Assembly (NCBI RefSeq): GCF_025526975.1
Contig: NW_026515672.1
Location: 434,001-498,000 of the forward strand
Direction of reading: 5' to 3'
Source: Fimicolochytrium jonesii
Lineage: Eukaryota
Length of the DNA: 64,000 nucleotides
The stretch's first letter is position 1. Every line of letters starts with the position of its first letter. Under the pieces are notes generated by a model that had not been told where the DNA came from, searched no databases, and worked only from the letters and a program-made list of their open reading frames with translations. Below are positions 11,636-35,850 of this stretch, one piece after another. Position numbers and translations under genes: made by a program.

Positions 11636-11684
11636 TGGATCAGTGCATAGCATAAACCATTGGTTTATGCTATGCACTGATCCA
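11636..11684. repeat. Terminal perfect palindrome (24-bp arms, 1-nt centre)
   Basis: TGGATCAGTGCATAGCATAAACCA-T-TGGTTTATGCTATGCACTGATCCA. Confidence 0.97.
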
Positions 11685-12454
11685 CTATACAATTGCACTG
11701 TGCATTAACCGTACTGACTCCACTCAACACTGTGCATTAACCGTAACGGCTGCTGAAAGTGTAATGCATTAACCGTACTGGCGGGTGTATGGTGTAATGT
11801 ATTAACAATGTACCCTACACCTTCGGTGTTATGCATTAACCGCACAAGCCTTTCAGCCATTAACCACCCTTGCGCACTTTGGGAAAGGGGGCAAAGTCAA
11901 ATTTCCCCCCTACATGCGTCGAGTCCAACCAACCTTTCTACTACTTCCCCATTCCCTGTTCTATGTAGGGGGGCAAAAAGGCATTTTTCGAACCAACTCT
12001 CACCACCAAAAAGAGACATCCTTTTCTCATTCTTCTTTTCAAAACTCTTGGTACAGATGGTACATATGATACAGGTGTCACTTACACCTGTACCACCCGC
12101 TTCGCACACTCGACATATCTAGTAGAATACTCTTCTTCCATTACTACATATGGAGACCTTTTCACCGAGTCATTACACTTGGTACAGATGGTACAGATGA
12201 TACAGGTACTTTTCATTTCTTTTCTCCCCTTTTCCTTTTCCATTCCATTTTTCTAAAGAAGTTAAAAACTACTGTACCATCTGTACCATCTGTACCAACT
12301 CCATCAAACTCTCTCCTTCTCTAAAAAACAAAAAAAATATCTTACTACATTTGTCGAGACCGTCACAGTAAATGTCACAGTACACAAACTCATACTTCTA
12401 CTGTGACATCCACCTATACGAACATTCTTTCATTTTTCAAAATTACATTACATT
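11636..12454 (+). repeat. Left terminal inverted repeat (819 bp)
   Basis: Reverse complement of 35027-35845; the ORF-track translations inside both copies are identical. Confidence 0.96.
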
Positions 12455-12483
12455 GAAACCTATCATTACTTTCCCTCAGAACT

Positions 12484-12870
12484 CTAGTCTGCTTTATCAC
12501 GCACGGCAGCGGTAGTGGTTTCTGAACTATTTTCTTCAACTTTGCCAGTGCCAAAGGCCCACTCGTTGGGCATGGAGATACTCTCTGTGACAGCGTTATT
12601 CTTGACAAACTCTAATTTTCCCGGCTTGTCAAAGCAAGCCCATTCCTTTTTCTCGTTTTCAATCCAACGGTCGTATAGTTTTCGCCAGACAGGTTTCATG
12701 ATGGAATTGAATCTGCAAAAGTCCCGTTCGTATTCTTTGCATTCCCAACCTGAACCCATTATCGTACCAGTGATGAATCGGCAGCGAGTTATGAAGTCCT
12801 CGTCGGACATCTTTTCGCGGTGCGAAACTCCCGTTAACCTTTTGACAAGCGATTTATTGAAGAAAGACAT
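12484..12870 (-). CDS. Viral hypothetical protein (128 aa)
   Basis: ATG-initiated ORF ending just inside of the TIR; no family recognised. Confidence 0.6.
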   Translation of the reverse strand: MSFFNKSLVKRLTGVSHREKMSDEDFITRCRFITGTIMGSGWECKEYERDFCRFNSIMKPVWRKLYDRWIENEKKEWACFDKPGKLEFVKNNAVTESISMPNEWAFGTGKVEENSSETTTAAVRDKAD

Positions 12871-13393
12871 GTTTAATGCTCACGTCTCCAATCTGCACCT
12901 TGTCGCTTCTATATAAATCTTGGTGTGGGACCGAAACCAAATCCGATAACAACTTACATTCGATATCAACTGTCAAGAAATGAGGTTATATGACATGATC
13001 AGCGGTCATTGAACTCGAAACAAATCTATAAACGGTCAAGTAGGTATCTGAATACTATTCATCCTCCTAATTCTCTACGTTCCTCTAAGGGGCATTTTCA
13101 CTTTGCCCCACTTCTCAAAATGCCCCCGCCGTTCGTGTGATGGGCTTTGTAAAATCGCCCACCCCCAACGTAAAGAGGTTCGTAAAAATCGCCCCCAATG
13201 GGGGTGTTTTGTTCCGGACGCCTTGCATAATTTTGGAGTGGGCGATTTCGAGACGTAGTTCAAATTTGTGGGGGTGATTTTGTTGAGACCGGTTCCGCAG
13301 TGGTGGGGGCGATTTTGTTGCCATTCATCCCAAAATACCGTGGACGCATTTTCTTGAACAGCCAAAGTCAATTTCTTGAGCGAAGTCAAAACA

Positions 13394-13726
13394 ATGCCAA
13401 ACGTTTTTGAAATCAATTCACATATCAAGTGTATAGAGGGAGTTGTTGTTATTCGTTTTGTCGTAGCAGACCTCGATAGTCTGGAACGAATATGTCGGTC
13501 TATGTTAAACAAACCCGGTTATATGGCATATATCAAAGTAAATGACGAAAATCGGGAGATTTTTAAGCAGATCTATACCATTTTTAATAAGAAAAATAAT
13601 CGTCTCCGTAAAGATTTCATTTTCAAGAGCGGGTATCTAGGGATCACAGACGATAAGGGACAACTGAGAATGCTATGTGGAACAGACAAAGACCATCGAG
13701 CCTGTGTACTTGATGTCGAGATTTAG
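13394..13726 (+). CDS. Viral hypothetical protein (110 aa)
   Basis: ATG-initiated ORF convergent with the fibre gene, stops overlapping. Confidence 0.6.
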   Translation: MPNVFEINSHIKCIEGVVVIRFVVADLDSLERICRSMLNKPGYMAYIKVNDENREIFKQIYTIFNKKNNRLRKDFIFKSGYLGITDDKGQLRMLCGTDKDHRACVLDVEI

Positions 13727-16700
13727 TAGCACTGGGTCCAAAAGTTGAGATATGAATTTGATAATGTTATAGAAGTTGGTATGACAATTCGTGCGGAAAG
13801 TTGCGTATTCGTCGAAGAAAACAGCAACGGCACTTGAAAACTGAATGGGTAGCGAGTCTGATAATTGTTTATATCACAGTAGTACGAGACTGCTCTAGAG
13901 GCGACTACGGTAGAAGATTGGTCTAATATTTGAACAGTTATTGTTACCCGAGTGTTATTCGAATTCATATACCCCATAAAGGAAACATGCGCGACCACTC
14001 CCGACATACCTGCTTTCCAATTTATGGGACCGAAGCCCCCCGTGTAGCCATTTGCGTTTGTCAACAACGCATCAACAACACCGTCTTTTATGCAAACTGC
14101 AGATTGAATGATTTGTGAAGCATAGATGTTCGTACTACAAGTCAAATCATTCTTTACCAAGGCTGTTGTATTGCATGTCAAGGAATTCACAGTTGCTGAA
14201 CCACTTGATGAAACGGTTCCCGTAGTTATCGCACCCGAAACATCTATATTGTTTGCAGAAGCACTGACAAGGGTCGCTTTCGGAACAGCCTGATTGAACT
14301 GAATCTGGCGGATAGCGACCCCTCCTGTTGTTGTCTGATTCGCGTACTGCCATGCGATACCCCATACTACATAAGGCGTGGTGTTTGCAAAACTAAACGT
14401 ATTCCCATCAGTGGTCCAAGTAGAACCAGGTATATTCGAAAACGTTGCGATTGTTACCATAGCCGACTCGGTTGTTCCGGCAATCACGGAGAACGTAGTA
14501 GGCATCGCCACGGCGTCCATCAGGTAGGCGGTGAGTTTAAGAGAAGCCATAGCAATGGCCGACGGGAGTCTCAATAACGACCAATGCAAACTCTGTGTTG
14601 TTGAATCGAGTCCTAGGTTTGCTGTCGAAGTGCTCGCGGTTGCCCACCGCAGTCTGGAAGCAATACTTGCATTACTATAACAATCGAAAACATGTCCCGT
14701 ATATCCATCTACACCGTTTCCGTTTGCATACGTGTATTCGGAAGAACCAATAACTGAATACCCGGACCATGATTGACCTGTTGCTGGCGTCTGTGGATAT
14801 GGAACGAGAGTTGTGACAGAATTTAAGGCAGGAGTTTTCAAGTCCCCGGTCACATTAAGATTCGACCCCACATATAGAGATTTCGCTACAGATGCGCCTC
14901 CATTCACTTGAAGAGCGCCCGATGTGTTAGAAGTTGCATCAGAAGTGTTCAAGACCGATACAGTACCACTGTTGTTCAGATTTCCCCCAACATATACGTT
15001 TTTCGCCACAGAGGCGCCTCCAGACACTTGAAGAGCGCCTGATCCAACTCCTGTGCAATCGGTTGTGGTAAAGACCGCGACGTTACCACTGCTGGTGGAG
15101 ACTTTAAACCAAGTAGTGGTCTCGGCTGAATTCCATACGGAAAAATCTCCTACAGTTCTCAAGTCGTCCCATACCCGTACATAAGGGTTGGAACTTTGGT
15201 TCGGATCTATGGAGAGAGGACCTGCTGAACCAGATGCAGAAATTATTGCTTGATTTCCGGTGAAATTCATGTTTCCTGAAACTGTCAAATTGCCGATAGA
15301 ACCGGTAGGAATAGAAACTTTACCTGTTCCGTCCACTGTAAGACCTTGTGGTGCATTCCATAATCCCAAACCCAACGTATTGGTTGCAAGACCCGCTCCA
15401 ACATAGTTGAAATATACCCTGGCCATGTTATTTGTAGCCGCTCCTACTCCAATCTGTAAAGTCGTGAAACTCCCCGCTGCCAAATTAGGTGTTCCGAGAT
15501 GCGAAGATACAACAGGCCCGGTGGAGACGATATTGGAGTATATTGTCCCATTAACAGTCAAGTCTTTACCAAGATTGACATTCCCTGCGATACCCGCTCC
15601 ACCTCTCACCTGAAATGCACCTGATGTTGTCGAAGTAGAATCTATAGTGGAGAGAATCTGTACACTGGGGAGATTACTGTTTATCACAAAGTTAGCGCCA
15701 GACCCCGAATAAAGGAAAAAGTTCCCAGCGTTTGGAGCGTTCGTACCAGTTCCAGCATACCCGAAAGCCCCAACTATCGTTCCTGTGTTGTTAAGGAAAC
15801 CGATAGTAGAAAACCCCGATGCCGAAAGACTCTGGATCTTGAGAACATCAGTTGTAGTGGAGTTTAGTTGCAAAGTATGACTGGAAGTGGCAGAAGACCC
15901 AGCAAATAGAGATTTTGCAATTCCAACGCCACCAGACACTTGCAAAGCACCTGTTGTTGTAGAAGATGAATCAGTTGTCGTATTGATTAGAACATTTCCA
16001 TTTGTCAAGATATCAAGATTTGATACGCCGGGTGAGTTAGCGAATCGTAAGTTCGTCGGTGCATTATTGTACTGTGCCCTAATCACCATATCGCCAAGAG
16101 CCGAGTTTGAGGAAAAATACCCTGCTGCTGAAACGTTGCCCGTTATGCTGCTTCCGAATGTGGGGGATGATACTGAACCGTTGTACCAAAAGATACTTTG
16201 ATTTGACCCGACAAAACTCGCATCACTTCCTACCGTCAATTTCTTGGCGATACCAACACCTCCGGCGACCTGTATAGCGCCAGCATTTGTAGCGTTGGAG
16301 TCGGATACCGAATTGATAGTTAGTGCATTCGTTGTCACATTCACCGATAACGCAAGATTTGCGGCAGTATTGTTGTATAAGCCGAAATTATTAGTTCCAA
16401 GGCCACTAGTTTGACCTATATGCCACAAGGTCCAACCTCCACCGTTTGAGTTTATCAGACCTATAGTAGGGCCGTTTCCGGCGGTAGATTCCTTTATGAT
16501 TCCAAATCCACCGACGTATAATGATTTAGCAATTCCAACGCCGCCGGCAACTTGGAGAGAACCAGCATTTATAGCGTTGGAGTCAAGAGTAGAAGTAACT
16601 ACAGTCGATGCAGCGTTATTTATGTTCAGATTCTGTCCGGTTGTGGTATTGAGGTTCGCCGTTGTTCCGCCCAGGAATACGGTGCCGCCAACCACCACAC

Positions 16701-19700
16701 TTTTCCCTATACCAACTCCGCCAACAACTTGGAGCGAACCTGAATTTGTCGACGTAGAATCAGTCGTTCCGGCAATTTGAACATTGGATAAGTTCGCATT
16801 TCCACCAACATTCAGAGATGATAGAGTTCCAACGCTTGTAATTTGAGGCTGAGCAGGATTTACGCTGAACGAATTTCCACTACGTGTCAATCCTGTTCCA
16901 GCACTAAGAAGCGTATCAACATATGTCTTGTTCGCGAGATGTGTCCCCAATGTCGGTGCTGTTGAGACGACAGCGTTTCCTGACAACGTTAAGTCTCCAG
17001 CAAAGTTCGCATTTCCATTAACGTTCAATGATGATAAAGTTCCAACCGATGTTATCTGAGGTTGAGCCACATTGACAGAGAAATTGTTTCCTGTTCGTGT
17101 TAAGCCGGTTCCTGCACTTAGAAGCGTATCAACATAAGTCTTATTTGTGAGATGTGTATCTGCTGTTGGGGCTGTCGAGATGATGGCGTTCCCTGATATG
17201 GTCACGTCGCCTGTAACACTCAACCCCTGCAGAGTTCCAACTTTGGTGATAACAGCCGACTGGTCCGTGTTGACTGAAATGGCCGTGCCTGACTTTGACA
17301 ATCCTGCGCCAACTGTTGATGTCTGAGCATCGACGTAGGCTTTCGTGCTTACTTGGGCGTCTATATTGGCGAGAGGCAAGATACCTGTCACATCTGTTGT
17401 GAGCGTGATGGTGTTCTTTAACGCCACGGAACCGAGCCCAAGTGCTGTTCTAGATGCTGATGGAGTCGTTGAGGCAAAATTACTTCCATCTCCTACGAGA
17501 AAATTATTAACAGTTGGGGTAGATGAGGAAATAACAGTTAATTTAGGATTAAGAGGTTGAGCATTTCCGGATGTTGTAGAAATCAATCCATCCACATATG
17601 ATTTTGTTGCTGGGTTTGATGCGACGGTGGGAGCAGGAATCGTTACCGCTCCAGAAAATGTAGATGCACCACTAACTGAGAGGGAAGTAAGGGTTCCGAC
17701 CGTTGTGATTTGACTTTGTGAAGGAAGAACTGCCAATGTGACCCCTGTTTTCGAAAGTCCTGTACCGGCGAGAACAGTTTGTGCATCAACATAACTTTTC
17801 AAAGCCACGCTCTGATCAATATTTGCATATGGAAGAATCCCCGTAACGTCAGTCGTTAGCGTAACTGCGTTTTTGCTCGATAATGACCCCAATGTGGGCA
17901 GTCCACTCAAATTCGAGTAAGCAACTGCATTCAAGAGGGCGACTGAGCCTAGTCCTAAAGCCACTCTAGCATTGGCTGGAGTGGTGCTGATAAAATTTGA
18001 ATTATCGCCTACAAGGAAATTGTTGAGCGTGGGAGTAGATGCGGCAAGCGAACTTAATTTGGTGTTTAAAGGCTGATACGTTGTTGCAGCAGCACTCGAT
18101 AAGAGGTAGTTATTCAGAGTGGGACTGCTAATACTTCCTGATGTCAAAGCGCCTGTTACGTTAAGAGATGTGAGTGTCCCAAGAGTAGTGATATTTCCGG
18201 TATTGACCGAAACGGTATTAGATGTATCTCTGGAGAGGATAGGTCCAGCAAATGTTAATTTCTTCTCGTAGATGGTGAGATCTGGAGCACCCGTTATTCT
18301 CGCATATGGAATGGTATCCGTTTTTGCGACTTTACTATCGATAGCAGTTTGAAGAAGACTTGTATTCTGACTTATCAAATTTGAATACGTGGGCTGTATG
18401 ATTGTAGAATCGTATTCACGTAACATGCCCAAGTTGATTGCCTGCTGTGGGACCTCTCCTGCAATACCCAGATATGAACATGTAGGTGGAGTGTCAAAAA
18501 GTAATCTCGTAACATCACAGGATGTATCATCCGTTTTAGGGAAAGTTGCAATGATAACTTGACTTCCGTTCGGATCTGGAACGGGATTATTATGTGAATC
18601 AACCACATTGTTACCATTTGCATCTTTCTGGTTTTTCCTTTCTCGACCACTCGCAGCGATGAAACCACCAAGGATTCCGGCTGCTGCAGCAGGTCCTCCA
18701 AGAAGTCCCCCGACGGCTCCAATGGCGCTAGTGGCAAATGGAGCGGCAGCCGCGGATCCAATGAGGCCAATTGCGCCTCCAACAATTGTAGACAGCGGAC
18801 CAGTAACTGAAACCACTGGATTAGATCCAGATGCTGTTAAAGGATCAGATTCGCCAGATGGTTCCGAATCCTCATTCTTCTCTTCTGGATCATCGTCTTC
18901 CTTCCGGTTCTTGTAGGGCTGGATCGATGAGATATTGAAGCCGGTCTCCTCCGAGCCCACTACTAAAATCCCACTTCCGCCCGTTATGACTAAAGGTTGT
19001 TTTGCGATGTTATACTCCTTATCCGCTCCAGTAACAATGATAGGTAAAGCGCCGGTAATTACCGTGGGTGTTTCCGGTTCTGGTTGATATGTGCAACTGA
19101 TGCTTGACCCCGAAATGGATATGTTGTTTCCAGCCGTGTAGGCGCCGGAAATAGTGTTTCCCGTAACTGACACTCCATTAGATCCAGTATAGGCACCTTT
19201 TATTGAATTGCCTGTTACCGTAACAGTCGAATCACCAGCCTGTAAATCCAACTGCAAATCATTTTCTATGCGTTTAACTCCGTTACTTGCTGTGAGTTTC
19301 TCACCGAACGTGTTGTTACCATCGAATGTGATTGAACCTGAGACAGATGGAGCGAGTTTCACTTGATTCGAATTCTCTAATTTCAATCCGCCATTTCCTG
19401 GTTGGAAAGTTAGTCCTATCGCAATTTTATCATTTACGATGCGAACACCTTTATTGTCAACGATAGCCGACGGATTTACTGAAAGATTTTGTGAAGAGTC
19501 AATTGCTAAACTTGCATCTGTTCTAACATCGATAGTACGCCGACCATTGGACACTCCGGATATGTCTATACCTGACCCTGCTTGGTACAATTGCTCTATG
19601 TACCCGGATGTCACCACTTCATTATTAGCAGGGTTGAAGTTGCTTGTAACGTATACATGCGGAACACGTAATTCATTGAGTGTTTCATTATACGTAAAAC

Positions 19701-20700: not shown

Positions 20701-20720
20701 TTACTAATTGCTAAAGAAAA

Positions 20721-21017
20721 TTATCCGATTGGAGTTTGCTGTAAATGTTCTAAGAATTGATCACCGCCTTTATGGAAATCTTCAACCCTCTTTATTCCTA
20801 AATCTGCAAACTGTTGCCCTTTTCGCGCAGTTTCTTTGATTTTATCGTGGAAGACGTCGTTCTGTTGAATCCCTTTGTTTACATGGCTTGCTATCGCATA
20901 TCCCTTTCGAGTAACGGAAACCGCTTTGTCTAGAAAATTCCTCGCCTTTCCGATATTTTGTGGCAGTTCGTTAAAAAATGTGCGCGCTTTTCCTCTCGCT
21001 TTTTGAAAGAATCCCAT
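20721..21017 (-). CDS. Small amphipathic-helical virion protein candidate (98 aa)
   Basis: MGFFQKARGKARTFF N-terminus; located in the structural gene block. Confidence 0.65.
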   Translation of the reverse strand: MGFFQKARGKARTFFNELPQNIGKARNFLDKAVSVTRKGYAIASHVNKGIQQNDVFHDKIKETARKGQQFADLGIKRVEDFHKGGDQFLEHLQQTPIG

Positions 21018-21065
21018 TGAATATTCTTTTTCTTAACATGTACTAAAGAATATATATTCCATTCT

Positions 21066-22755: not shown

Positions 22756-22783
22756 TGGTTTCTACTATATGATTAGAAGATTT

Positions 22784-25324: not shown

Positions 25325-25379
25325 CGATTTCTTATCTTTTGTATAATGTAAAGAGATTAATTTTACGAGTGCGCTAAAT

Positions 25380-26114: not shown

Positions 26115-26142
26115 AAAAAATTTCGTGGACTAAAAGTATAGG

Positions 26143-26364
26143 ATGATTGATAACATTTTCTATTTGCCAAATTCGCTAACCAAAGAATCTTTTGACAAAC
26201 TTCTAGAAGACCTATCACAGGATAGGCTTTGGTTAGACATGCCGGAGGACGTAAGGACGAGAACTTTACAACAATGTAAGGAAGAAATAGTTGTGAATAT
26301 TGTTCAGTCGCATTTGGACAAGCAAGTTCCAGTCAAAACTCCAAGAAGAAAAAAGGCCGCTTGA
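26143..26364 (+). CDS. Viral hypothetical protein (73 aa)
   Basis: ATG ORF with a basic C-terminus, preceded by a variant of the shared upstream motif. Confidence 0.55.
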   Translation: MIDNIFYLPNSLTKESFDKLLEDLSQDRLWLDMPEDVRTRTLQQCKEEIVVNIVQSHLDKQVPVKTPRRKKAA

Positions 26365-26652
26365 AAATTTCAAAGTTTTCCAAGATTTCCGTCCGGAATA
26401 TGACGTAAAACTATTCTACAAGTTGAGCAACAAAAGACTTCCGCGCGACCAAACTCCTGAACAAATTAGTGCCATTTTACTATTTGGGTTGTGCTTTTTC
26501 AGGTTGATTCGGGCTTTACCTATACAGTTTGACTTCTTAATTGACTGCATCAAGCCCAAGAAACAAGCCCAGGTGTTTTTCTCAATTTTTTACCGAACAA
26601 TGACAAAAAAATTGACCACAACATTAATTTGTGGTCAATTGATAAACGAAAG

Positions 26653-27891
26653 ATGGACTCCGACAACAAAGGCCCTTCATCTCTCAGATATGACCCCATC
26701 ACTCCGGAGGATCTCCGGAACCTCACCAAGTTTTACTATCAGAATCAAAACTTTCTAGGACGAGACAAATTGTGGTATGCATATAGAAAAGCGTTTCCAA
26801 ATAGCAGGATTTCGCAAAGAACCCTTCTTAACGACTTTCTCAAGAAGCAAGAGATTTGGCAGAGATCGACAAAAGTTATGGGATCCCGAGGCTCGATAAA
26901 ACCGATTTTGGCCAGAAAGGAAGGAAACTACCAGATCGATTGTATAAATCTGACGTCGGTAGCATACGGTGGGTACAAGTATTCGGTCAATGCTTCGGAT
27001 ATTCTCACTAAAAAAGTGTATAGTATGGCGATGAAGACACAAGATCAAGCCACTGTTGTCAAGTTTCTAGAAACAATGAAACGGGATGGCGCTGTATTAG
27101 TAAGTTTCACATCCGATGTAGGTACGGAATTTCAAGGTCAGGTACAAGAGTGGGCCGACTCGAATAACGTGGAGTGGAAGTTCGGACAACCCGGTGTCCC
27201 CCAAGGTCAAGGACAGATTGAATCCGTTAACAAAAATATAAAAAATCTGATCTATTCCTCGATACGTTTCGGAAAACGGGATTGGCCAAATTATCTTCAA
27301 AAACTCATAGATAATTTAAACAACACGAAAACGTATGCGACAGGGAAGGCTTCAAATGAAATCTTACAAGATGAACATGAAGCCATCTTTGATCGCATAC
27401 GGAACAAGAAATTGAAAGGGGTGAAATCAACAGTTTTGAACGAATTTAAGGTGGGAGATATTGTAAGAAAGATAATACCGTTACCAAGTGGTATTAAAAG
27501 ACGCGCAAAGGTGGGGTATTTCTCGTCACAAACCTATAGAATTGGAGGGAAAGTGCAAAGTAATTATGCAGGTTATGTTTCATCGTACAAATTAAACAGA
27601 ATGGATGGAACAAGACTTCCCGGTTTAATATCGGCCAACGATCTTCGCTTGGTTCCATCAGGGACCGTCAACGTACCAAACATGGCTTCCCAGCCAGATC
27701 CAAATGAAAATGACGAATACGAAATCGAATCAATACTTGATAGTAGAGTAGTACGTAGAGGCAACAGAAGGATAAAGCAGTACAAGGTTCTATGGAGTGG
27801 TTATGATGCGTCCCAATCAACTTGGGAAGATGAAGGGAATCTCGAAAATGCACGGGAGGCCATAGCCGAGTATGAAGAGCAAAATGGATAA
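26653..27891 (+). CDS. Retroviral-type (rve) DDE integrase with C-terminal chromodomain
   Basis: YQIDC, TSDVGTEF and QGQIESVN triad; EYEIESILDSR...YKVLWSGY...STWEDEGNL chromodomain. Confidence 0.92.
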   Translation: MDSDNKGPSSLRYDPITPEDLRNLTKFYYQNQNFLGRDKLWYAYRKAFPNSRISQRTLLNDFLKKQEIWQRSTKVMGSRGSIKPILARKEGNYQIDCINLTSVAYGGYKYSVNASDILTKKVYSMAMKTQDQATVVKFLETMKRDGAVLVSFTSDVGTEFQGQVQEWADSNNVEWKFGQPGVPQGQGQIESVNKNIKNLIYSSIRFGKRDWPNYLQKLIDNLNNTKTYATGKASNEILQDEHEAIFDRIRNKKLKGVKSTVLNEFKVGDIVRKIIPLPSGIKRRAKVGYFSSQTYRIGGKVQSNYAGYVSSYKLNRMDGTRLPGLISANDLRLVPSGTVNVPNMASQPDPNENDEYEIESILDSRVVRRGNRRIKQYKVLWSGYDASQSTWEDEGNLENAREAIAEYEEQNG

Positions 27892-27898
27892 TAGGTTC

Positions 27899-29059
27899 TC
27901 AAAACTTGTCATCTAGATTTAAATCGTCATTAAGATCGTCGATATCCATCGCATCATCATCATTAGATGAGCCTTCGTTCTTCTCCCTGTGAAGATTATA
28001 ATAAACTTGTCGTGTTGCATAGGAATGACCATGCTTTTTAGCGAACTCTTTTTGAACCCGAGGATCTCCGTTATCCAATTTGATCGAGTCAATCACTACA
28101 ATTTTTCTAAGTTCATTGACTCCGAGTTCTTTTCCGATATGTTGTTTACAAGCGATCTTCATAGCCCTTCCAAAACCTCCGCCTTCATAGGGTTTACTTG
28201 CGTTGCGCGCTTTTTCAAACAATTTACTCTGTCCTTTAGCCTTACGAATATCAACCAGATTATCAATGTGCCTTTTGACAATGTCATCGATAACCGTAAT
28301 AAGAACATCGGTGTCTCCCTTATTCTTATTACATGCTTTTATCAGAAACGTATGGGTTTCCGTATTAAATGTGACGTTATCCGTTTCGGTAATGTCCACA
28401 AACTTCGCTTCGCCAATGTCTGCTCTTCGAATAACATCTGAACCAACGAAACAAGCCGCTGCAATGAGCAACCCATACTTATATGGATCTTTGACGGCCT
28501 TTTCTTTAAGTTGATCCAATTTCTCGTAAAGAGCGTTGATTAAAGGGTCTTTTTCAATGAAGCGCTTCGTTTCATATTCTTTATCCATTACGAGATCGCG
28601 GGCTTGTATCTCTTTACAACGATCGCCGTTGATCTTGAGATAGAAATGTCCCATTTCGTCAATATGCGTAAGTTTGTCCATTGTGCACGCATCTAGGAAT
28701 CGTTTCTTTGCAGTTTCACCATAGAGGCTAGACGAGAGCCAATCGTACAATCCTATTTTTTCCTCGTTTGTCATAATTTTGAACATAGCGGACAACACCT
28801 TTGTACAATTCGCTCCATCGTCTTTAGGGTAATTCTTTTTCAAGATTTTCATGACATCGGTCGGAGATGATAGGACATTCGGATCAAAAATCCCGTATGC
28901 TTCAAGTCCATTACAAGCCGACAGATATACCTTTCGGCTACTCGGAGCCAATCCTATCTTTCCATTCTTTTGTTGGACGGTATCGGCATATCGGTTGATA
29001 AGTTTCTTGGCTATTTCAATATTCATTGCTGTGTCGTTCTTTGGTTGTGCATAAACCAT
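27899..29059 (-). CDS. Tyrosine-recombinase-fold protein (386 aa)
   Basis: IRRADI (Arg), ACNKNK (Lys), NELRK and HGHSYATRQVYY (His...Tyr) in YR order and spacing. Confidence 0.75.
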   Translation of the reverse strand: MVYAQPKNDTAMNIEIAKKLINRYADTVQQKNGKIGLAPSSRKVYLSACNGLEAYGIFDPNVLSSPTDVMKILKKNYPKDDGANCTKVLSAMFKIMTNEEKIGLYDWLSSSLYGETAKKRFLDACTMDKLTHIDEMGHFYLKINGDRCKEIQARDLVMDKEYETKRFIEKDPLINALYEKLDQLKEKAVKDPYKYGLLIAAACFVGSDVIRRADIGEAKFVDITETDNVTFNTETHTFLIKACNKNKGDTDVLITVIDDIVKRHIDNLVDIRKAKGQSKLFEKARNASKPYEGGGFGRAMKIACKQHIGKELGVNELRKIVVIDSIKLDNGDPRVQKEFAKKHGHSYATRQVYYNLHREKNEGSSNDDDAMDIDDLNDDLNLDDKF

Positions 29060-29626
29060 TACTCGTTTTTACTCTTTAAATAAGAAATTTAATCACATCG
29101 TTAATATCGATATTAAACGCATGTTTATGTCATCGCGCGCGAATACTTACAGGTGGAACTCCGATTTCATCAGGATTCAAGAAAACACCCACCCCCAAAC
29201 AAAACTTTAATCAGTACAGAACCACCCCCACTTCCCCGAGTATGATCATGCAGAATCGCCCACACCTGCGCCGTCTATTCAGCCGAAACCACCCCCGCGG
29301 CAAGGTTACTAAAATTAAGCATTCACCCACATGAGGAGTGAGTAAAAATGGTACAGAAACAAATCACCCCCTCTTGGGGGTGATTTGACTCTTCTCGAAA
29401 CAAAAAACGGTGGGTGTTTTCTTTCCATAACTGAGCAAAGCAAGCGGGGGTGTTTTTTACCTCCCGTTTTCCAACGCCCGCGGGGGCGTTTCCTGTCGGT
29501 TACCACCTGGGTACTGTTTCTACATGTTGATATCATTTACTTTACAGTTAGGTGAGGTTGCAGATGTTGTTCTTTCCCGTTTGCGGAAAGGAAAACCGCC
29601 ACGAAAAAATATAAAAGGGTAAAAAA

Positions 29627-31918
29627 ATGTTTGTTTCCCTTCAAAAAATTTCAAACAGTTCCTCACTCTTAACAACTATTGCACACAACCGCTTTCGCCA
29701 TAACTTTCAACCAACGCACGTTCTCAACATGCAAAAACGCCAAAACACCATGGAATTGGCTCCGAAGCGCATCAAAAAAGCCAAACGTACCGTCCAAAGG
29801 GCTGAACCGGGCTCTTTGAATGTGATCAATAACGAAGTGAATTGCAATGAAGACCATATCGACTTCCCAGTTGCGTTGGACTTGGACAATATTTTCGATA
29901 TCGATCCTATGAATTTGAGCATCGAGCCATTGGATTCTCCTTCGACTCAAAACACTCCGACGATCAACAAGCCCGGTCTCGTTGGCTTGCAGATGGATGT
30001 CAATCAAAGTGAAAACGTCATGATTGACAACCAAACCGATGTCAATAACGATCATCCCCAGGAACGTCTGGACGATGTGCCTGACCGAATCCTTCCGGGC
30101 ACTCCGAGTGTCAACCCGCCCGATATCCCTGGATTGCAGATGAAAGTCAATGAAAACGAAGAGATCCAGATTGACAACAACCAAATCGCCGCCAACAATG
30201 ATGACCCCCAGGAACGTCACAAATCTATCGATGGCAGCACCGCGCTTGTTTCTCATGAAGATCTGGCTTCTTCGCAGAAGGCAGGATCGACTCATGATAT
30301 GTTCCAGTGTCAATGCAAACCGTGCACTATCCGTGTTTCGTTTTGGGAATTTGGCCATGCTTTGATAGCACACATAAACCCGAAATCAACAGAGGACAAA
30401 AAGAAAAAGGGTCAATGGGTAACCCCTGCCGCCGAGTTCTTCGAACGGTTTTATGGGCATCTCATTCGATTGAACGACACCAAAGGCTTCGTACGATGGA
30501 ATCCTGCGACGCGCACAAACACCCACTTCGACAAAACAGCCTTCACCGCGTACGTTGGTCAAGTATTATTCGATTGTTTTAATACCACCGACAAGAATCA
30601 AAGCGAAGGCGCAAAGCATGAAATTGGTAAAGGAGCCAAGAAGGTTGTCGACATCATATTCGGACGATTGCGATGGAGGGAGGCTGAGGACGCCAAGCCT
30701 CCTGTGGACAACAGCCATCTGATCGCTTTCAGAAACGGCCTTGTTTACGACCGAAAAGTCGGTGAATATCGGGAGCGCACCGATGAAGACGGCGATATTG
30801 AAGCGTTTGACTATGATCTTGTTGAGTGGGATCCCGAGAAGTATCCCAAACAGCGGTACTTGTGGGATGCCTTTTGCAAAATGTGGCCTGACTCCTCCGA
30901 TCGTTTCTTCGGGCTCACCAATCTCAGTACCATCCTGGGAAGCAGACGCGGTCTTCGTGAACTGCTTATACTTTACGGTCCAAGTTCCAATGGCAAAAGT
31001 TTGGTTGGAAGATTGATGAAACTTATGACATGTTATCGGTTTCTGGGAGCGACCGCCAGCAGCCTACAAAGCAAACCGGGGAACGGAAATAAGCCGTCTG
31101 ACATTCACTGGAAAATGGGGCAAAAATCAACACTTATCACTTGGTTTTCTGAAGGGGATGAGAAGGATTTGTATTCCGGTTCGGCAGTCAAAATGGCTGT
31201 CGGAGGAGATTCTGCGTACCTTAGGAGGGCTTATGGCAAGAATGAAGAACTTACGATAACGGGATTGGTTGTTCTCGCTACAAATCATCTTCCATATTTC
31301 GATTGTGGACTCTACGACAACGATCACAGAGATATTACGGACAAGTTGGTTGTAATACCTTGCAAATCGAAGTTCGTCAGCGCTCATGAACATGAAGATC
31401 CGAGTCAACATGTATATTATAAGGACGGTGAACTCGACCGGCTCATCAACAACGAAGACCGGGACTTAGCGAGTGCCATGATGGCACTCATGGTTTCTTT
31501 GCATCACGATCATCTTCAAACGGAAGAATATCCATTACTGAGCAAGCCCGCGTCAGTGATTTCAGCGACTGCAGATTTAGTCACAAGAGTGCATCCGTAT
31601 CGAACTTTTGTAAAAGAAATGTGCGTTATTGAAGAAGGCGCCAAAATGCGACAATGCATGGCTATGGCGTGCCTCCAAAATTGGACAAAACAGCATCCAG
31701 TATGGCGCAAATGCTCACCGCGGACCCAGGATTTCAAGGCTTTCCTGCTTCACGCGTACCCTGCCGTCTCCTTTGGTACGAACCGACGAATCGACGGGGT
31801 CCAAACAACCGGGTTTTACGGGATCCGGTTGAAGGAAGAGGAGGGGGACAAACATGGAGGACGTGATAAGTTCCTACTGAGCGATATTGACATCCTATCA
31901 AAAGCCATTGAAGAGTAG
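29627..31918 (+). CDS. D5-like superfamily 3 helicase (763 aa)
   Basis: IAFRNGLVYD (D5_N-like), Walker A GPSSNGKS, WFSE, LATNHLP and C-terminal GFYGIRLK. Confidence 0.88.
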   Translation: MFVSLQKISNSSSLLTTIAHNRFRHNFQPTHVLNMQKRQNTMELAPKRIKKAKRTVQRAEPGSLNVINNEVNCNEDHIDFPVALDLDNIFDIDPMNLSIEPLDSPSTQNTPTINKPGLVGLQMDVNQSENVMIDNQTDVNNDHPQERLDDVPDRILPGTPSVNPPDIPGLQMKVNENEEIQIDNNQIAANNDDPQERHKSIDGSTALVSHEDLASSQKAGSTHDMFQCQCKPCTIRVSFWEFGHALIAHINPKSTEDKKKKGQWVTPAAEFFERFYGHLIRLNDTKGFVRWNPATRTNTHFDKTAFTAYVGQVLFDCFNTTDKNQSEGAKHEIGKGAKKVVDIIFGRLRWREAEDAKPPVDNSHLIAFRNGLVYDRKVGEYRERTDEDGDIEAFDYDLVEWDPEKYPKQRYLWDAFCKMWPDSSDRFFGLTNLSTILGSRRGLRELLILYGPSSNGKSLVGRLMKLMTCYRFLGATASSLQSKPGNGNKPSDIHWKMGQKSTLITWFSEGDEKDLYSGSAVKMAVGGDSAYLRRAYGKNEELTITGLVVLATNHLPYFDCGLYDNDHRDITDKLVVIPCKSKFVSAHEHEDPSQHVYYKDGELDRLINNEDRDLASAMMALMVSLHHDHLQTEEYPLLSKPASVISATADLVTRVHPYRTFVKEMCVIEEGAKMRQCMAMACLQNWTKQHPVWRKCSPRTQDFKAFLLHAYPAVSFGTNRRIDGVQTTGFYGIRLKEEEGDKHGGRDKFLLSDIDILSKAIEE

Positions 31919-31980
31919 TTTGTGGAAATATGCGTTACAATTGTAAATAAGTAAATAGTTCCTTGTACATATCAATTTGA

Positions 31981-32187
31981 ATGAATTTCAAAGAAACAAT
32001 GCGTCCTTGGTATCCAAAGCGCTCTCCTTCAGGCAAAATTAATTACCCGGAAGGAACTCGAAAATGCAAGACCGCTGAATGCCAATCAGAACCTATTCCC
32101 TACATCAAAAATCGGCCATACTGCTACGATTGTTGGGTCAAGTCAAAGGAACCTAAAGGTTTCAAGATAGAATTCGATTCGGATTGA
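31981..32187 (+). CDS. Small Cys-motif protein (68 aa)
   Basis: CKTAEC...CYDC, a possible zinc ribbon. Confidence 0.5.
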   Translation: MNFKETMRPWYPKRSPSGKINYPEGTRKCKTAECQSEPIPYIKNRPYCYDCWVKSKEPKGFKIEFDSD

Positions 32188-32405
32188 TCCAGATCATCTG
32201 ATTTCGAACTCAAAGGCTCCTTCAATGTCCTTTTGATGGTGATGTGTCTCCGCGTCCTGCATGATTCTACATTACCCAAAATTCGCGCAACAGTGGATGC
32301 GGCAATATCTAGTTTTCTAGCAAGATCACGGACGCTCCGGCCTGTGACAGTCTTGATTTCTCCATCCTCAAAGAGTGATGCAATATAGTTGTAAGGAATG
32401 TACAT
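32124..32405 (-). CDS. Small helix-turn-helix DNA-binding protein (93 aa)
   Basis: SVRDLARKLDIAASTVARIL fits an HTH pattern. Confidence 0.6.
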   Translation of the reverse strand: MYIPYNYIASLFEDGEIKTVTGRSVRDLARKLDIAASTVARILGNVESCRTRRHITIKRTLKEPLSSKSDDLDQSESNSILKPLGSFDLTQQS

Positions 32406-32510
32406 CTTTGTAGCAATAACGATGCTTCTTTATTGGTACATATATGTTTATTTTTGTTACTTGCGTTTAAATGCCATTTAAACTTCTAAGTGTATTCTTA
32501 GTAAAGCACC

Positions 32511-35024
32511 ATGTCTTCCAAATTTGCTGCTCACGTTGAATCCAAACCTATCAGAGACATCTATCATTTCAAGGAATCTTACTTCGGAGGTGTTCCCGAG
32601 TTCAATTGGACACTCGAAGAATACGAAAAGAAACATATGGAACACAAGTGCCTTACCGAAAACTTTACAAAATTAGGCGCCAATGACAAGATCAAATTGT
32701 TTGTCGATTTCGATCTGAGATTTGAGGAAGAATCCGATCTGCCCTCTGAAGAAGTCGAGACTGAAATCCGTAAAGGTGTTGATAAAGTATTTACCTCCTT
32801 GTATTTAAATGAGGATATTACTTTTCATTCTGCGTTCCGTACAATGGGATACGCTCCTAAGCACACCAAGGACAAAAATGGTAAATACGTCGAAACCGGT
32901 GGTGGATATAAAGTCTCTTATCGCCTATGGGCAGACGGTATGTATACGACCCGGAATGAAATGAAGAAGAAACTCAAGAAATTCATCCCAGATTTGTCCG
33001 ACTTCCCGGATGTTGTTCGAGACTACAATTTCAAGGATGGATTTTTTGATCTTTCTGTCTATGACAACAATCGGTCCATGGTGATGGTGGACAAAGTCAA
33101 AAATCGTTGGGATAACCGACTTCTCATCAAAAGCGAACCGGATGCACCGATCTCTTCGTATATCATTCAATATGTAGAGGCGGACTGGACCCCGGTTGAA
33201 TGGACAATTCAATCTGATAGTAGAAAGCGTCCTGCCAATGATGAATTTGTCCTGGTTCCGGACTCGGACCTTGAAGACCAACCGCAACCAAAGAAGAAAA
33301 AGGTCACTCCATCCCGAGGTGAAGAGAACGTGACTTCAATTGCTCATGATATTATTAGAAAGCATTACCCAAACGCTTACCTTCTACGGGATCTGAGTGA
33401 AGCGAAGATACTCGACCACGCTGTTACCGTATTCGTCAAGGGGAAATACTGCATGGTCGAGAAGGCTGACCACGAAGTGTCAGTCTCTAAAATGTACTTC
33501 ACTCTAACTACAAAGAGGCTCAAATTCAATTGTACTCACTGTAACGGAACCCGAAATTCAGAACATGGGGACAAACGTCTCGATGAGTGTTTCGACAACG
33601 ATGTGGAAATTGTAAAACCTGGTGAGCGCCTGAGTATCAAACGTGCTGCTCAAGTGTACAAAACCCATGACTATGAAGGAGTCATCATGTATCTGAATAA
33701 CTATTGGGCAAAAGTCACCGAGGAATCCTCCGTCTTCATTGCCTCTAGAACAACAATAGATTCACCGTGGCTTCTCAGAAAGCCGTCTGAATTTGAATCA
33801 GCCTTCGGCCATTTGAAGTTCACCTATTTAGAAGAATCTTTGGGAAACGATGGAAAAACCACATACACACAGCAAGTCTTCCCTTTGGTCGCAAACTGGA
33901 AAATTGATAACAAAATGCGAACATTCAGGCACGTGAAATTTAGGCCGGACCATGTAGGGGACCACGAAGACGAATACTTGAATCTCTTTCAGGGATTTCA
34001 GGGAAAAAAGTTGCTAGCATTTGATGAAGCAAAGTTCAAACTGCTTTTAGATCATGCCAAGAACATTCTCTGCTCAGGCGATGAGGAATTCTACTCGTAC
34101 TTGATACATTGGTTAGCGCATATAGTTCAATTCCCGGGACAAAAGACACAAACAGCACCGGTTTTCTTTAGCAAACAAGGGACGGGAAAGAACATCTTTT
34201 TTGACTTCTTCGCCAAATTCATTATCGGAACCGCTCATTCGTTTTACACCAATGATATTGATCAAGTTACAGGGAGGTTCAACGCGGCTCAAGCGGTCTG
34301 TATTTTCATGGTATGTGATGAGGTTACCTTCGCGGGTGCTCATAAACAGAACAATAAATTGAAAAGCATCATCACCTCAGCGCAAACAGCACTTGAGCGG
34401 AAAGGTCGGGACATCATCATGGTAGATTCTTGCCTCAACGCTGTGTTTCTCTCCAACAATGAAGATGCCATGCGGATTGAAAACACTTGCCGACGATACG
34501 GCGTCAAACGAGCGGCCTCCTCGCGGATCGGTGATGAGGTGTATTTCAAAACGCTTGGTGCACATCTGACACAAGAAGTTGCAGATCACTTTTACACATA
34601 TCTTTTGTCGCTGGATCTTTCTGATTTCAATGCGCGGAAAGTCCCTGATACCGAAGAAAAACGGGAGATGGCAGGATATTCGAGATCCCCTTTAGATCTG
34701 TTTATTGACGACATATTGGCAGGGAATATCGCGTACAAGGTAGTGAACGGACATTTCGTAGAAGAGGACATGGAGAGCAAGTGGGTTCCTGGACATACGG
34801 AATATTTTGAACTAGGTGTCTCATACGATTTAACAATGAATGAACTATTTGACCTGTTCACCACTTTCTGCAAAACCGAACAAGGTGGTCGAGTGGAGTC
34901 AAAATTGACCAAAGCCATTTTTTCAAAACGGATTAGAAGGATACTAAACATCGAGAACCGGTTGTGCAACAGACGAGGAGGAACCCCCATAACAATGGTA
35001 CTGGAGCGCATAGATACTGAGTGA
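32511..35024 (+). CDS. AEP primase(-polymerase)-SF3 helicase fusion (837 aa)
   Basis: KLFVDFD, SYRL and FDLSVY AEP-like motifs; C..H..C..C zinc site; Walker A SKQGTGKN, VCDE, FLSNN and RRY. Confidence 0.87.
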   Translation: MSSKFAAHVESKPIRDIYHFKESYFGGVPEFNWTLEEYEKKHMEHKCLTENFTKLGANDKIKLFVDFDLRFEEESDLPSEEVETEIRKGVDKVFTSLYLNEDITFHSAFRTMGYAPKHTKDKNGKYVETGGGYKVSYRLWADGMYTTRNEMKKKLKKFIPDLSDFPDVVRDYNFKDGFFDLSVYDNNRSMVMVDKVKNRWDNRLLIKSEPDAPISSYIIQYVEADWTPVEWTIQSDSRKRPANDEFVLVPDSDLEDQPQPKKKKVTPSRGEENVTSIAHDIIRKHYPNAYLLRDLSEAKILDHAVTVFVKGKYCMVEKADHEVSVSKMYFTLTTKRLKFNCTHCNGTRNSEHGDKRLDECFDNDVEIVKPGERLSIKRAAQVYKTHDYEGVIMYLNNYWAKVTEESSVFIASRTTIDSPWLLRKPSEFESAFGHLKFTYLEESLGNDGKTTYTQQVFPLVANWKIDNKMRTFRHVKFRPDHVGDHEDEYLNLFQGFQGKKLLAFDEAKFKLLLDHAKNILCSGDEEFYSYLIHWLAHIVQFPGQKTQTAPVFFSKQGTGKNIFFDFFAKFIIGTAHSFYTNDIDQVTGRFNAAQAVCIFMVCDEVTFAGAHKQNNKLKSIITSAQTALERKGRDIIMVDSCLNAVFLSNNEDAMRIENTCRRYGVKRAASSRIGDEVYFKTLGAHLTQEVADHFYTYLLSLDLSDFNARKVPDTEEKREMAGYSRSPLDLFIDDILAGNIAYKVVNGHFVEEDMESKWVPGHTEYFELGVSYDLTMNELFDLFTTFCKTEQGGRVESKLTKAIFSKRIRRILNIENRLCNRRGGTPITMVLERIDTE

Positions 35025-35026
35025 AG

Positions 35027-35845
35027 AATGTAATGTAATTTTGAAAAATGAAAGAATGTTCGTATAGGTGGATGTCACAGTAGAAGTATGAGTTTGTGTA
35101 CTGTGACATTTACTGTGACGGTCTCGACAAATGTAGTAAGATATTTTTTTTGTTTTTTAGAGAAGGAGAGAGTTTGATGGAGTTGGTACAGATGGTACAG
35201 ATGGTACAGTAGTTTTTAACTTCTTTAGAAAAATGGAATGGAAAAGGAAAAGGGGAGAAAAGAAATGAAAAGTACCTGTATCATCTGTACCATCTGTACC
35301 AAGTGTAATGACTCGGTGAAAAGGTCTCCATATGTAGTAATGGAAGAAGAGTATTCTACTAGATATGTCGAGTGTGCGAAGCGGGTGGTACAGGTGTAAG
35401 TGACACCTGTATCATATGTACCATCTGTACCAAGAGTTTTGAAAAGAAGAATGAGAAAAGGATGTCTCTTTTTGGTGGTGAGAGTTGGTTCGAAAAATGC
35501 CTTTTTGCCCCCCTACATAGAACAGGGAATGGGGAAGTAGTAGAAAGGTTGGTTGGACTCGACGCATGTAGGGGGGAAATTTGACTTTGCCCCCTTTCCC
35601 AAAGTGCGCAAGGGTGGTTAATGGCTGAAAGGCTTGTGCGGTTAATGCATAACACCGAAGGTGTAGGGTACATTGTTAATACATTACACCATACACCCGC
35701 CAGTACGGTTAATGCATTACACTTTCAGCAGCCGTTACGGTTAATGCACAGTGTTGAGTGGAGTCAGTACGGTTAATGCACAGTGCAATTGTATAGTGGA
35801 TCAGTGCATAGCATAAACCAATGGTTTATGCTATGCACTGATCCA
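35027..35845 (-). repeat. Right terminal inverted repeat (819 bp), including terminal palindrome 35797-35845
   Basis: Reverse complement of 11636-12454. Confidence 0.96.
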
Positions 35846-35850
35846 AGCGG

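What the first reader, a model, noticed from the sequence alone, without database searches (positions are those of the whole stretch)
11636..35845. Apparently intact 24-kb endogenous virus: PolB-less, palindrome-ended, with two recombinases and two helicases
Seen: 819-bp TIRs, 5-bp TSD, TG...CA ends and about 16 uninterrupted intronless ORFs, including MCP-, penton-, ATPase- and fibre-like genes. Established: canonical Polintons/Mavericks have pPolB, a cysteine protease and usually 6-bp TSDs. Neither gene is recognisable here. Instead the element has an AEP-SF3 fusion, a second D5-like helicase, a chromo-integrase and a YR. Inference: a distinct lineage of fungal Polinton-like virus, recently inserted and possibly still active.
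Basis: partly seen in the sequence, partly recalled or inferred. Interest (0 to 1): 0.93.

Follow-up and report, generated by a model that had tools for sequence, protein, structure and literature searches.

The report
Palindrome-ended Polinton-like virus of chytrid fungi
A 24-kb DNA virus with unbroken genes sits inside a jumping gene of what is most likely a soil chytrid fungus; it has a capsid gene, palindromic ends, an integrase and a probable second recombinase, and it likely copies itself as a hairpin-ended DNA, making it an unusual variant of the known Polinton-like viruses.

Summary
Observation confirmed: 24,210-bp element, identical 819-bp TIRs, TG...CA ends, 5-bp TSD, perfect 49-bp terminal palindromes, 15 clear unbroken ORFs. 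The 407-aa protein folds as a double jelly-roll (PBCV-1 Vp54, Z 24.9). A32 ATPase, rve-chromo integrase (D,D35E intact), two unrelated SF3 helicases and a fibre are supported. AEP, penton and tyrosine recombinase (YR) are supported more weakly. No pPolB was found, and no protease was recognised. The capsid lies in a chytrid clade found, often multi-copy, in seven named genera, apart from the published Spizellomyces PLV. The virus split the YR gene of a young Ngaro retroelement. Lack of pPolB and protease and an AEP-SF3 are ordinary for Polinton-like viruses (PLVs). Chytrid PLVs, terminal palindromes (2026 preprint) and rve+YR (in virophages) are in print. Unusual: stand-alone rve plus YR in a PLV (no genuine case among 8,300 elements in one survey), two helicases, and a primase domain 99% identical to Fimicolochytrium proteins fused to another helicase, i.e. 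recent module swapping. Likely mechanism: hairpin-ended linear genome copied in the nucleus, integrated by rve. Activity is untested. New variant of a known kind.

The parts
11631..11635 (.). left copy of 5-bp target-site duplication (AGCGG)
11636..12454 (+). left TIR, 819 bp
11636..11684 (.). terminal palindrome, 24-bp arms plus 1-nt centre; predicted hairpin end
11701..11841 (+). five copies of a TG(C/T)ATTAAC motif at 32, 32, 33, 34-bp spacing next to the palindrome; likely protein-binding (origin) array
   Evidence: function inferred
12048..12298 (.). second TIR repeat set (9-bp GGTACAGAT-type units, partly as an inverted pair 12179-12222 / 12255-12298)
12484..12870 (-). 128-aa ORF, unassigned
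13394..13726 (+). 110-aa ORF, unassigned (loose H..D..Q-x4-CG look-alike by eye, no protease profile hit)
13723..20700 (-). 2325-aa fibre-like protein
   Evidence: Pfam Av_adeno_fibre E 4e-10; 40% over 603 aa to the part that follows the MCP in a fused Powellomyces gene model
20721..21017 (-). 98-aa ORF, unassigned
21066..22529 (+). 487-aa Ser/Thr/Pro-rich ORF, unassigned, no Cys
22784..24007 (-). major capsid protein, double jelly-roll, 407 aa
   Evidence: AF2 pLDDT 74; Foldseek E 3e-14; VIA Z 24.9, rmsd 3.2, 317 aligned
24063..24533 (-). 156-aa charged protein conserved between penton and MCP
   Evidence: 57% over 91 aa to fused Geranomyces gene models
24575..25324 (-). probable penton (minor capsid protein), 249 aa
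   Evidence: ESM Atlas 0.98 to viral DUF5901 clusters; synteny in Geranomyces; not folded
25380..26114 (+). A32-like packaging ATPase, 244 aa
   Evidence: Pfam Pox_A32 E 5e-7; Walker A 35, Walker B 113
26143..26364 (+). 73-aa ORF with basic C-terminus, unassigned
26653..27891 (+). rve integrase with C-terminal chromodomain, D96-D155-E190
27899..29059 (-). probable tyrosine recombinase, 386 aa (R211/212, K245/247, N315-x-x-R318, H345, Y354)
   Evidence: ESM Atlas 0.96-0.97 to Preplasmiviricota clusters, one with PF00589 in 16% of members; motif positions; no profile hit, fold failed
29627..31918 (+). second SF3 helicase, D5/C962R type, no primase domain recognised; D-K where the arginine pair is expected (expected position recalled)
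   Evidence: PHROG E 1e-15; TIGR01613 E 9e-9
32124..32405 (-). 93-aa helix-turn-helix protein
   Evidence: weak Pfam and NCBIfam HTH hits, all below cut-off
32511..35024 (+). AEP primase - Cys/His (probable zinc) domain - SF3 helicase (DUF5906/NrS-1 type), 837 aa, ending 2 bp before the right TIR
35027..35845 (-). right TIR, with terminal palindrome 35797-35845
35846..35850 (.). right copy of the TSD
11095..36251 (+). host Ngaro-type retroelement YR gene split by the virus (11095-11635 and 35851-36251)
   Evidence: reads as one 313-aa frame once the element and one TSD copy are left out; split direct repeats A1 1576-1736, B1-A2-B2 36738-37096

Best explanation
This is an integrated Polinton-like virus with a double jelly-roll capsid gene and unbroken reading frames, most likely of a spizellomycetalean chytrid, that was likely inserted recently by its own rve integrase and likely replicates as a linear DNA with hairpin ends. 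Shown: capsid fold, packaging ATPase, integrase with intact D,D(35)E, 5-bp duplication and TG...CA ends, perfect terminal palindromes, no pPolB. Inferred steps: (1) The palindromes fold back or extrude as cruciforms, so the freed genome ends in 24-bp hairpins, which removes the need for a protein-primed polymerase. (2) The AEP-SF3 protein loads at the repeat arrays in the TIRs and primes and unwinds in the nucleus, with host polymerases doing most synthesis; a basic NLS-like cluster is kept in 4 of 4 aligned homologues. (3) The rve enzyme nicks after CA, 24 nt past the hairpin tip, joins that end to target DNA with a 5-bp stagger, and gap filling opens the hairpin into the palindrome seen; its chromodomain probably steers it to silenced, transposon-rich chromatin. 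(4) The YR is most likely a second, site-specific recombinase acting on replication dimers or on a giant-virus genome, as proposed for virophages that carry both enzymes. The second helicase is most likely a recently acquired part of a replication module in turnover. Odds: PLV identity about 0.95; rve-made insertion 0.9; hairpin-ended episome 0.6; nuclear and helper-free 0.55.
For: Capsid. Module of penton-156aa-MCP and MCP-fibre is kept in fused gene models of Geranomyces and Powellomyces. Host: 8 of 13 close MCP hits carry a name and all 8 are chytrids. A 14-row clade (SH 100) holds the query and 8 of 8 rows labelled as named chytrids in a 119-row tree. Multi-copy clusters occur in Gaertneriomyces, Phlyctochytrium arcticum and Spizellomyces. 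Insertion: TSD, ends and frame restoration of the host gene; D,D35E and chromodomain aromatics; rve goes with TSDs in a PLV survey. Youth: 0 differences in 819 bp of TIR; surrounding Ngaro repeats identical (161 nt) or 1 of 79 different; nested Gypsy LTRs 1 of 532 different. Hairpins; 52-nt palindromes next to TSDs go with non-pPolB replicases in Halocafeteria. Module turnover: residues 1-262 of the AEP protein match a Fimicolochytrium jonesii protein at 259 of 262, after which that protein (a cluster of 4) carries a different, D5-type helicase; the second helicase gene has the highest GC3 of the 9 element genes measured (0.51 against 0.34-0.47).
Against: No episome, virion or transcript was seen, and only one copy was examined. 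The YR has no phmmer, Pfam, PHROG, NCBIfam or PDB hit and its single-sequence model failed (pLDDT 36). The AEP hit is below cut-off (16.4 against 23 bits) and an alignment search of PDB found nothing. The penton was not folded. A YR/helicase oomycete PLV is listed with a 7-bp TSD, so a TSD alone does not prove rve action. The Halocafeteria authors offer accidental annealing as another origin of the palindromes. Chytrids host giant viruses, so helper dependence is open.
Confidence: 0.6

Rival explanations
1. A helper-dependent, virophage-like PLV: silent in the chytrid genome until a Mycodnaviridae giant virus infects, then copied in its factory. rve serves the host genome and YR the giant-virus genome; the primase-less D5-like helicase may interfere with the helper's own D5 helicase.
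For: Giant viruses persist in zoosporic fungi and five of their MCP contigs carry polinton-like integrases. rve+YR is described in virophages with this proposed split of roles. The element has no recognised processive polymerase or transcription genes. The second helicase is most like ASFV C962R among solved structures, weakly (E 0.018).
Against: NLS-like basic clusters in both helicases. No shared upstream motif beyond T-rich words in 15 upstream regions. The family is multi-copy in many chytrid genomes, which fits autonomous spread as well.
Confidence: 0.3
2. A recent chimera caught during replacement of its replication and integration modules. One recombinase and one helicase are passengers, the double set is not a lineage trait, and the palindrome is an integration by-product.
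For: Near-identical AEP fused to different helicases in two elements. No relative of the YR was found although MCP relatives occur in seven genera. The second helicase differs in GC3 and has D-K at the arginine position. Such transient states are proposed in print.
Against: All four genes are full length with catalytic residues in place or nearly so. The palindrome is perfect at both ends and flanked by a phased repeat array. This reading is compatible with the best explanation for the helicase.
Confidence: 0.35
3. A capsid-encoding but intracellular transposon (no infectious virions), moving only within genomes.
For: No close relative of MCP, ATPase, YR, integrase or either helicase was confirmed in IMG/VR scans or in JGI metagenome scans; these scans reach close relatives only.
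Against: Intact 7-kb fibre gene and full morphogenetic module; 165 MCP relatives at E<=0.001, many from environmental assemblies; 99% identical AEP in a named chytrid genus.
Confidence: 0.1

Closest known systems
Polinton-like viruses with AEP-SF3 replicase (Aquintoviricetes in the broad sense; PMC11161782, PMC12220804, bioRxiv 10.64898/2026.06.19.733378)
   Same: DJR MCP, penton-like gene, A32 ATPase, no recognised protease, AEP-SF3 in place of pPolB, TIRs, 5-bp TSD, 24 kb
   Different: Stand-alone rve and probable YR together (co-occurrence in 12 of 8,300 elements in PMC12220804, all 12 put down to inserted retrotransposons); second free SF3 helicase; fungal host; MCP clade not placed in a named group here
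Palindrome-ended virophages (subtypes 1, 2, 5, 6) and PLV subtype 4 of Halocafeteria seosinensis (bioRxiv 10.64898/2026.07.28.741278)
   Same: About 50-nt palindrome at the TIR tip next to the TSD, non-pPolB replicase, rve; hairpin priming proposed; some virophages there have two replication genes and rve+YR
   Different: There rve+YR occurs in virophages 'but not PLVs'; here it is on a PLV-type capsid, in a fungus
Mid-GC EMALEs (types 5-8) of Cafeteria burkhardae (PMC8547959)
   Same: No pPolB, long primase/helicase, rve plus YR, 3-5-bp TSDs, association with Ngaro elements
   Different: They are mavirus-like virophages with a protease; there Ngaro inserts into the virus, here the virus inserted into Ngaro; the word palindrome did not occur in that paper's main text
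Spizellomyces punctatus integrated PLV and the 'S. punctatus group' (PMC7805220)
   Same: Integrated PLV in a spizellomycetalean chytrid
   Different: Its capsid SPPG_00925 is the 51%-identical hit of a 554-aa MCP, and nearby SPPG_00918 is the hit of a pPolB; 52% of the group carry a chitinase. The present MCP is 407 aa and its S. punctatus relatives are other genes (SPPG_02195, 07203, 08453)
Canonical Polintons/Mavericks (Polintoviricetes)
   Same: TIRs, rve integrase with chromodomain (reported for adintoviruses, PMC8502044), MCP, ATPase
   Different: No pPolB, no recognised Ulp1 protease, 5-bp TSD, TG...CA palindromic ends

Membership tests
Polinton-like viruses (umbrella group) | [quoted passage not shown] | tested here: met
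Polinton-like viruses (umbrella group) | A32-like packaging ATPase | tested here: met
   Pox_A32 above cut-off
Polinton-like viruses (umbrella group) | single jelly-roll penton | tested here: inconclusive
   ESM Atlas 0.98 to viral DUF5901 clusters, conserved position, by-eye likeness to a 'possible mCP' family in a supplement; no fold
Polinton-like viruses (umbrella group) | 15-40 kb genome with TIRs | tested here: met
   24.2 kb, 819-bp TIRs
Polinton-like viruses (umbrella group) | replicase other than canonical pPolB (PolA-, AEP- or SF1/SF3-based) | tested here: met
   SF3 strong; AEP weak, E 0.011, motifs conserved
Aquintoviricetes (class placement) | MCP/ATPase phylogeny among named PLV groups | not testable with these tools
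   No labelled reference set; the HMM set and supplements of the 2026 preprint are closed; tree has names only for chytrids
Polintons/Mavericks (Polintoviricetes) | protein-primed PolB | tested here: not met
   No PolB motif in six frames (motifs recalled); no profile hit; the three ORFs over 600 aa are assigned otherwise
Polintons/Mavericks (Polintoviricetes) | rve integrase | tested here: met
Polintons/Mavericks (Polintoviricetes) | Ulp1/adenain maturation protease | tested here: inconclusive
   No hit in Pfam up to E 10 for 8 small ORFs or in PDB for the 110-aa ORF; small ORFs not folded
Polintons/Mavericks (Polintoviricetes) | 6-bp TSD | tested here: not met
   5 bp
Virophages (Sputnik/mavirus class) | virophage-type MCP | tested here: not met
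   Z 17.6 (rmsd 3.8, 331 aligned) to Sputnik and 16.7 (rmsd 4.5, 329) to mavirus against 24.9 (rmsd 3.2, 317) to PBCV-1
Virophages (Sputnik/mavirus class) | dependence on a giant virus | not testable with these tools
   needs culture
S. punctatus group of PLVs (PMC7805220) | MCP of the SPPG_00925 cluster | tested here: inconclusive
   SPPG_00925 was not among named hits, but only 30 stored proteins were looked up by name; length differs; a motif from that cluster was absent from 9 of 9 long hits checked
S. punctatus group of PLVs (PMC7805220) | chitinase in about half of members; pPolB near the S. punctatus capsid gene | tested here: not met
Palindrome-ended virophages/PLVs (Halocafeteria type) | palindrome at TIR tip next to TSD, with non-pPolB replicase | tested here: met
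Palindrome-ended virophages/PLVs (Halocafeteria type) | 'particular' rve clade | not tested
   sequences not available
Tyrosine recombinases | R-K-HxxR-H-Y catalytic set | tested here: inconclusive
   R, K, N-x-x-R, H, Y at fitting spacing (consensus recalled); Atlas neighbours; no profile hit; fold failed
Protelomerases (hairpin telomere resolvases) | TelN/ResT-type catalytic domain and cleavage of a palindromic junction | tested here: inconclusive
   No Pfam recombinase or resolvase family hit on the catalytic region up to E 10; no direct comparison made

The most novel reading that the evidence does not exclude
An active, horizontally moving family of chytrid DNA viruses with a two-enzyme life cycle new for PLVs. 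The YR is a hairpin-telomere resolvase that cuts the 49-bp palindromes to free the provirus and resolve replication dimers, while the rve-chromo integrase inserts the hairpin-ended genome by nicking 24 nt from the tip. These would be culturable small dsDNA viruses of fungi that are swapping primase and helicase modules between chytrid genera today.
Probability: 0.2. Interest if true: 0.82.

Novelty: new variant of a known kind. Interest (0 to 1): 0.55.

Why it matters
A 2026 preprint states that no dsDNA (Baltimore class I) virus has been isolated from fungi, and a 2026 paper describes persistent giant viruses of zoosporic fungi. An unbroken, very young PLV in a chytrid group that is grown in culture (recalled) gives a direct handle on three open questions: whether fungal PLVs make virions, whether they depend on or defend against chytrid giant viruses, and how pPolB-less PLVs solve end replication. 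It extends the palindromic-end architecture from a stramenopile to fungi, and shows rve and a probable YR together on a PLV capsid, which two surveys did not see. The parts are each known, so this is a good model system and an undescribed clade, not a new kind of element.

Tried and rejected
No whole genome is held, so further copies and their TSDs could not be sought. No sequencing run was listed for 22700-26200; this is no evidence on expression. IMG/VR scans with the MCP alignment, YR, ATPase, integrase and both helicases confirmed no relative; a scan with distant MCP P0029 gave 1 match and 0 loci. JGI metagenome scans with MCP and with the AEP alignment confirmed none. So no relative's DNA, ends or full gene set was read. 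YR: phmmer of 5.8 billion proteins 0 hits among 3181 candidates; PDB sequence hits only at chance level; phage tblastn none; single-sequence fold unusable, so it was not sent to a fold search. Penton: no PDB sequence hit; 'DUF5901' occurs in 0 papers of the library, so reading DUF5901 as a penton is recall. Integrase: no phage tblastn hit; it shares only the chromodomain with the neighbouring Gypsy (33% over 57 aa), so it is not a piece of that retrotransposon. The two helicases show no significant likeness to each other (best E 0.89), so duplication is rejected; the second is only 25% like the Fimicolochytrium helicase. The 110-aa ORF as a protease: by-eye look-alike, too short, no hit. A 4-bp TSD parse was rejected because the right end stops at CA. 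No CpG depletion in the element (o/e 1.03). No shared promoter motif. The first tree run did not finish; FastTree was used on 119 rows: the query, stored proteins of 340-480 aa, P0008, and trimmed P0004 and P0024; shorter and longer hits were left out. Look-ups of earlier findings by sequence, by full word list and by genome returned nothing. Paper searches found no description of this MCP clade or of a fungal PLV with palindromic ends; closed preprint supplements and subscription papers (PMC11426020 not held) may hold one. No complex prediction was run.

Full report
1. Observation. The element spans 11636-35845 (24,210 bp). Its TIRs are 819 nt and exact reverse complements. AGCGG flanks both ends, and the ends read TG...CA. 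The outer 49 bp of each TIR are a palindrome of 24-bp arms around one base; the best other perfect inverted repeat in the three stretches scanned has 8-10-bp arms, and 0 of 200 shuffles fold as well as the left end. Next to it lie five copies of a 9-bp motif spaced 32, 32, 33 and 34 bp. GC is 0.43 against 0.51 in host DNA. Fifteen clear ORFs and two doubtful ones cover 92% of the interior.

2. Genes. The 407-aa ORF, folded with a 14-row alignment (pLDDT 74), matches PBCV-1 Vp54 (Foldseek E 3e-14; Z 24.9, rmsd 3.2, 317 aligned) better than the Sputnik or mavirus capsids (Z 17.6, 16.7). Pfam gives Pox_A32, rve, Chromo, an adenovirus fibre repeat and DUF5906 above cut-off. The integrase keeps D96, D155, E190. 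Both large ORFs near the right end are SF3 helicases and are not alike. The N-terminus of the 837-aa protein hits the C962R AEP family below cut-off (E 0.011) and keeps DxD and later motifs in 4 of 4 aligned rows. The 249-aa ORF scores 0.98 to viral DUF5901 clusters and sits before the 156-aa ORF and MCP in 2 fused Geranomyces gene models as well; penton is likely, not shown. The 386-aa ORF has R, K, N-x-x-R, H, Y at recombinase spacing (consensus recalled) and scores 0.96-0.97 to Preplasmiviricota clusters, one with PF00589 in 16% of members, but has no sequence or profile hit and did not fold; YR is likely, not shown. No PolB motif occurs in six frames and no protease was recognised.

3. Host and lineage. 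Of 13 close MCP relatives, 8 are named and all 8 are chytrids. Look-ups of 30 stored proteins added Spizellomyces, Thoreauomyces and Borealophlyctis and showed clusters of 2-4 gene models in several species; the 10 distant representatives named no organism. A profile search gave 165 proteins at E<=0.001. In a FastTree of 119 rows the query lies in a 14-row clade (SH 100) with 8 of 8 rows labelled as named chytrids and 5 unnamed rows. The host is therefore most likely a spizellomycetalean chytrid (inference). The published S. punctatus PLV appears to be another lineage: its capsid gene SPPG_00925 matches a 554-aa MCP and lies near a pPolB hit, whereas the S. punctatus relatives found here are SPPG_02195, 07203 and 08453.

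4. Insertion site and age. Leaving out the element and one TSD copy restores a 313-aa frame that ends in a DIRS/Ngaro-type YR motif (recalled), inside an element with A1...B1-A2-B2 split repeats. A Gypsy chromovirus sits in the same Ngaro. Ngaro A repeats are identical, B repeats differ at 1 of 79, Gypsy LTRs at 1 of 532. With 0 of 819 TIR differences (upper bound about 0.4% by the rule of three, my arithmetic), all layers are young.

5. Module swapping. Residues 1-262 of the AEP protein match a Fimicolochytrium jonesii protein at 259 positions; identity then collapses and that protein, one of a cluster of 4, ends in a D5-type helicase, while Geranomyces and P. arcticum homologues (50%, 41%) share the query's helicase type. 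This is direct sequence evidence of recent exchange in the end module, as modelled for other PLVs.

6. Mechanism. Best reading (0.6): a PLV integrated by rve that replicates as a hairpin-ended linear DNA in the nucleus using AEP-SF3 and host polymerases. A palindrome with a one-base centre is what filling in an opened hairpin leaves; a nick after CA 24 nt beyond the tip followed by strand transfer with a 5-bp stagger would give the junction seen (inference). The YR probably acts on dimers or on a giant-virus target, and the second helicase is probably a newcomer. Rivals: helper-dependent virophage-like life with chytrid giant viruses (0.3), a transient chimera with passenger genes (0.35, partly compatible), a non-infectious transposon (0.1).

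7. Comparison with print. PLVs mostly lack pPolB and often carry AEP-S3H (PMC11161782, passages; PMC12220804, passages, which also calls a protease-less module typical of Aquintoviricetes). Chytrid PLVs: PMC7805220 (passages and supplement rows) and bioRxiv 10.64898/2026.06.19.733378 (abstract, passages, sections 7 and 13), which places chytrid ATPases in two positions without describing the elements in the text read. Terminal 52-nt palindromes with non-pPolB replicases, double replication genes, and rve+YR in virophages 'but not PLVs': bioRxiv 10.64898/2026.07.28.741278 (passages and section 7). rve+YR without pPolB in EMALEs: PMC8547959 (passages). In PMC12220804 rve and YR co-occurred in 12 of 8,300 elements, all through inserted retrotransposons. 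Also read as passages: PMC10120064 (fungi were excluded from that survey), PMC11296320, PMC13533422, PMC3671162, PMC8502044 (chromodomain in adintovirus integrases), bioRxiv 10.1101/2025.04.19.649669 (122). Searches found no description of this clade; preprint supplements could not be seen and may bear on this. Unchecked notes of this scan report 50- and 44-bp terminal palindromes on viruses in another chytrid genome; they are leads only.

8. Verdict. Real, intact by sequence, young. It works like a palindrome-ended, pPolB-less PLV and is filed as a PLV; it is not a canonical Polinton or a virophage. New: the combination on a PLV capsid, the fungal host for this end type, the chytrid clade and the caught-in-the-act domain swap. 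New variant of a known kind; interest 0.55.

Noticed in passing
window 2263-8142 (-): Intact-looking Ty3/Gypsy chromovirus with 532-bp LTRs (1 mismatch) and TATAC TSD, inserted in the gag region of the same Ngaro element, so one Ngaro carries two chromodomain-integrase elements.
   Followed up: partly
window 1576-37096: Ngaro-type YR retrotransposon with A1...B1-A2-B2 split repeats; here the virus is inside Ngaro, the reverse of the Cafeteria case.
   Followed up: partly
window 44936-45490: Short diverged relic of the same Ngaro family in inverted orientation (85-95% to 1571-1897).
   Followed up: no
proteins P0163, P0166-P0168 (Fimicolochytrium jonesii): Four AEP-helicase gene models with an AEP nearly identical to the query's, two on one contig; no F. 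jonesii MCP was among the named MCP hits, so they may sit on another capsid lineage or a capsid-less element.
   Followed up: partly
proteins P0018, P0160, P0161 (Spizellomyces punctatus): Three copies of a 417-aa MCP of this clade, separate from the published S. punctatus PLV; P0160 is a gene model fused to an HNH/AP2-like part by its source name and look.
   Followed up: partly
window about 14200-14800 (-), fibre C-terminal region: Stretch that looks by eye like a galactose-binding/discoidin domain, a possible receptor-binding tip; Pfam gave no hit.
   Followed up: partly
window 12920-13390 and 29060-29620: Two intergenic regions with GC-rich inverted repeats (ACCCCC-type arms), at divergent gene pairs; possible regulatory or origin sites.
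   Followed up: no
one search hits P0025-P0159: A large set of unnamed 390-440-aa MCPs from environmental assemblies related to this capsid, with no host name in the 16 or so looked up.
   Followed up: partly
window 37200-64000: Host genes with introns, among them acetolactate synthase, a Snf7 protein and a FYR-domain protein, and by eye a Rab1-like GTPase and a CFAP61-like flagellar gene.
   Followed up: no
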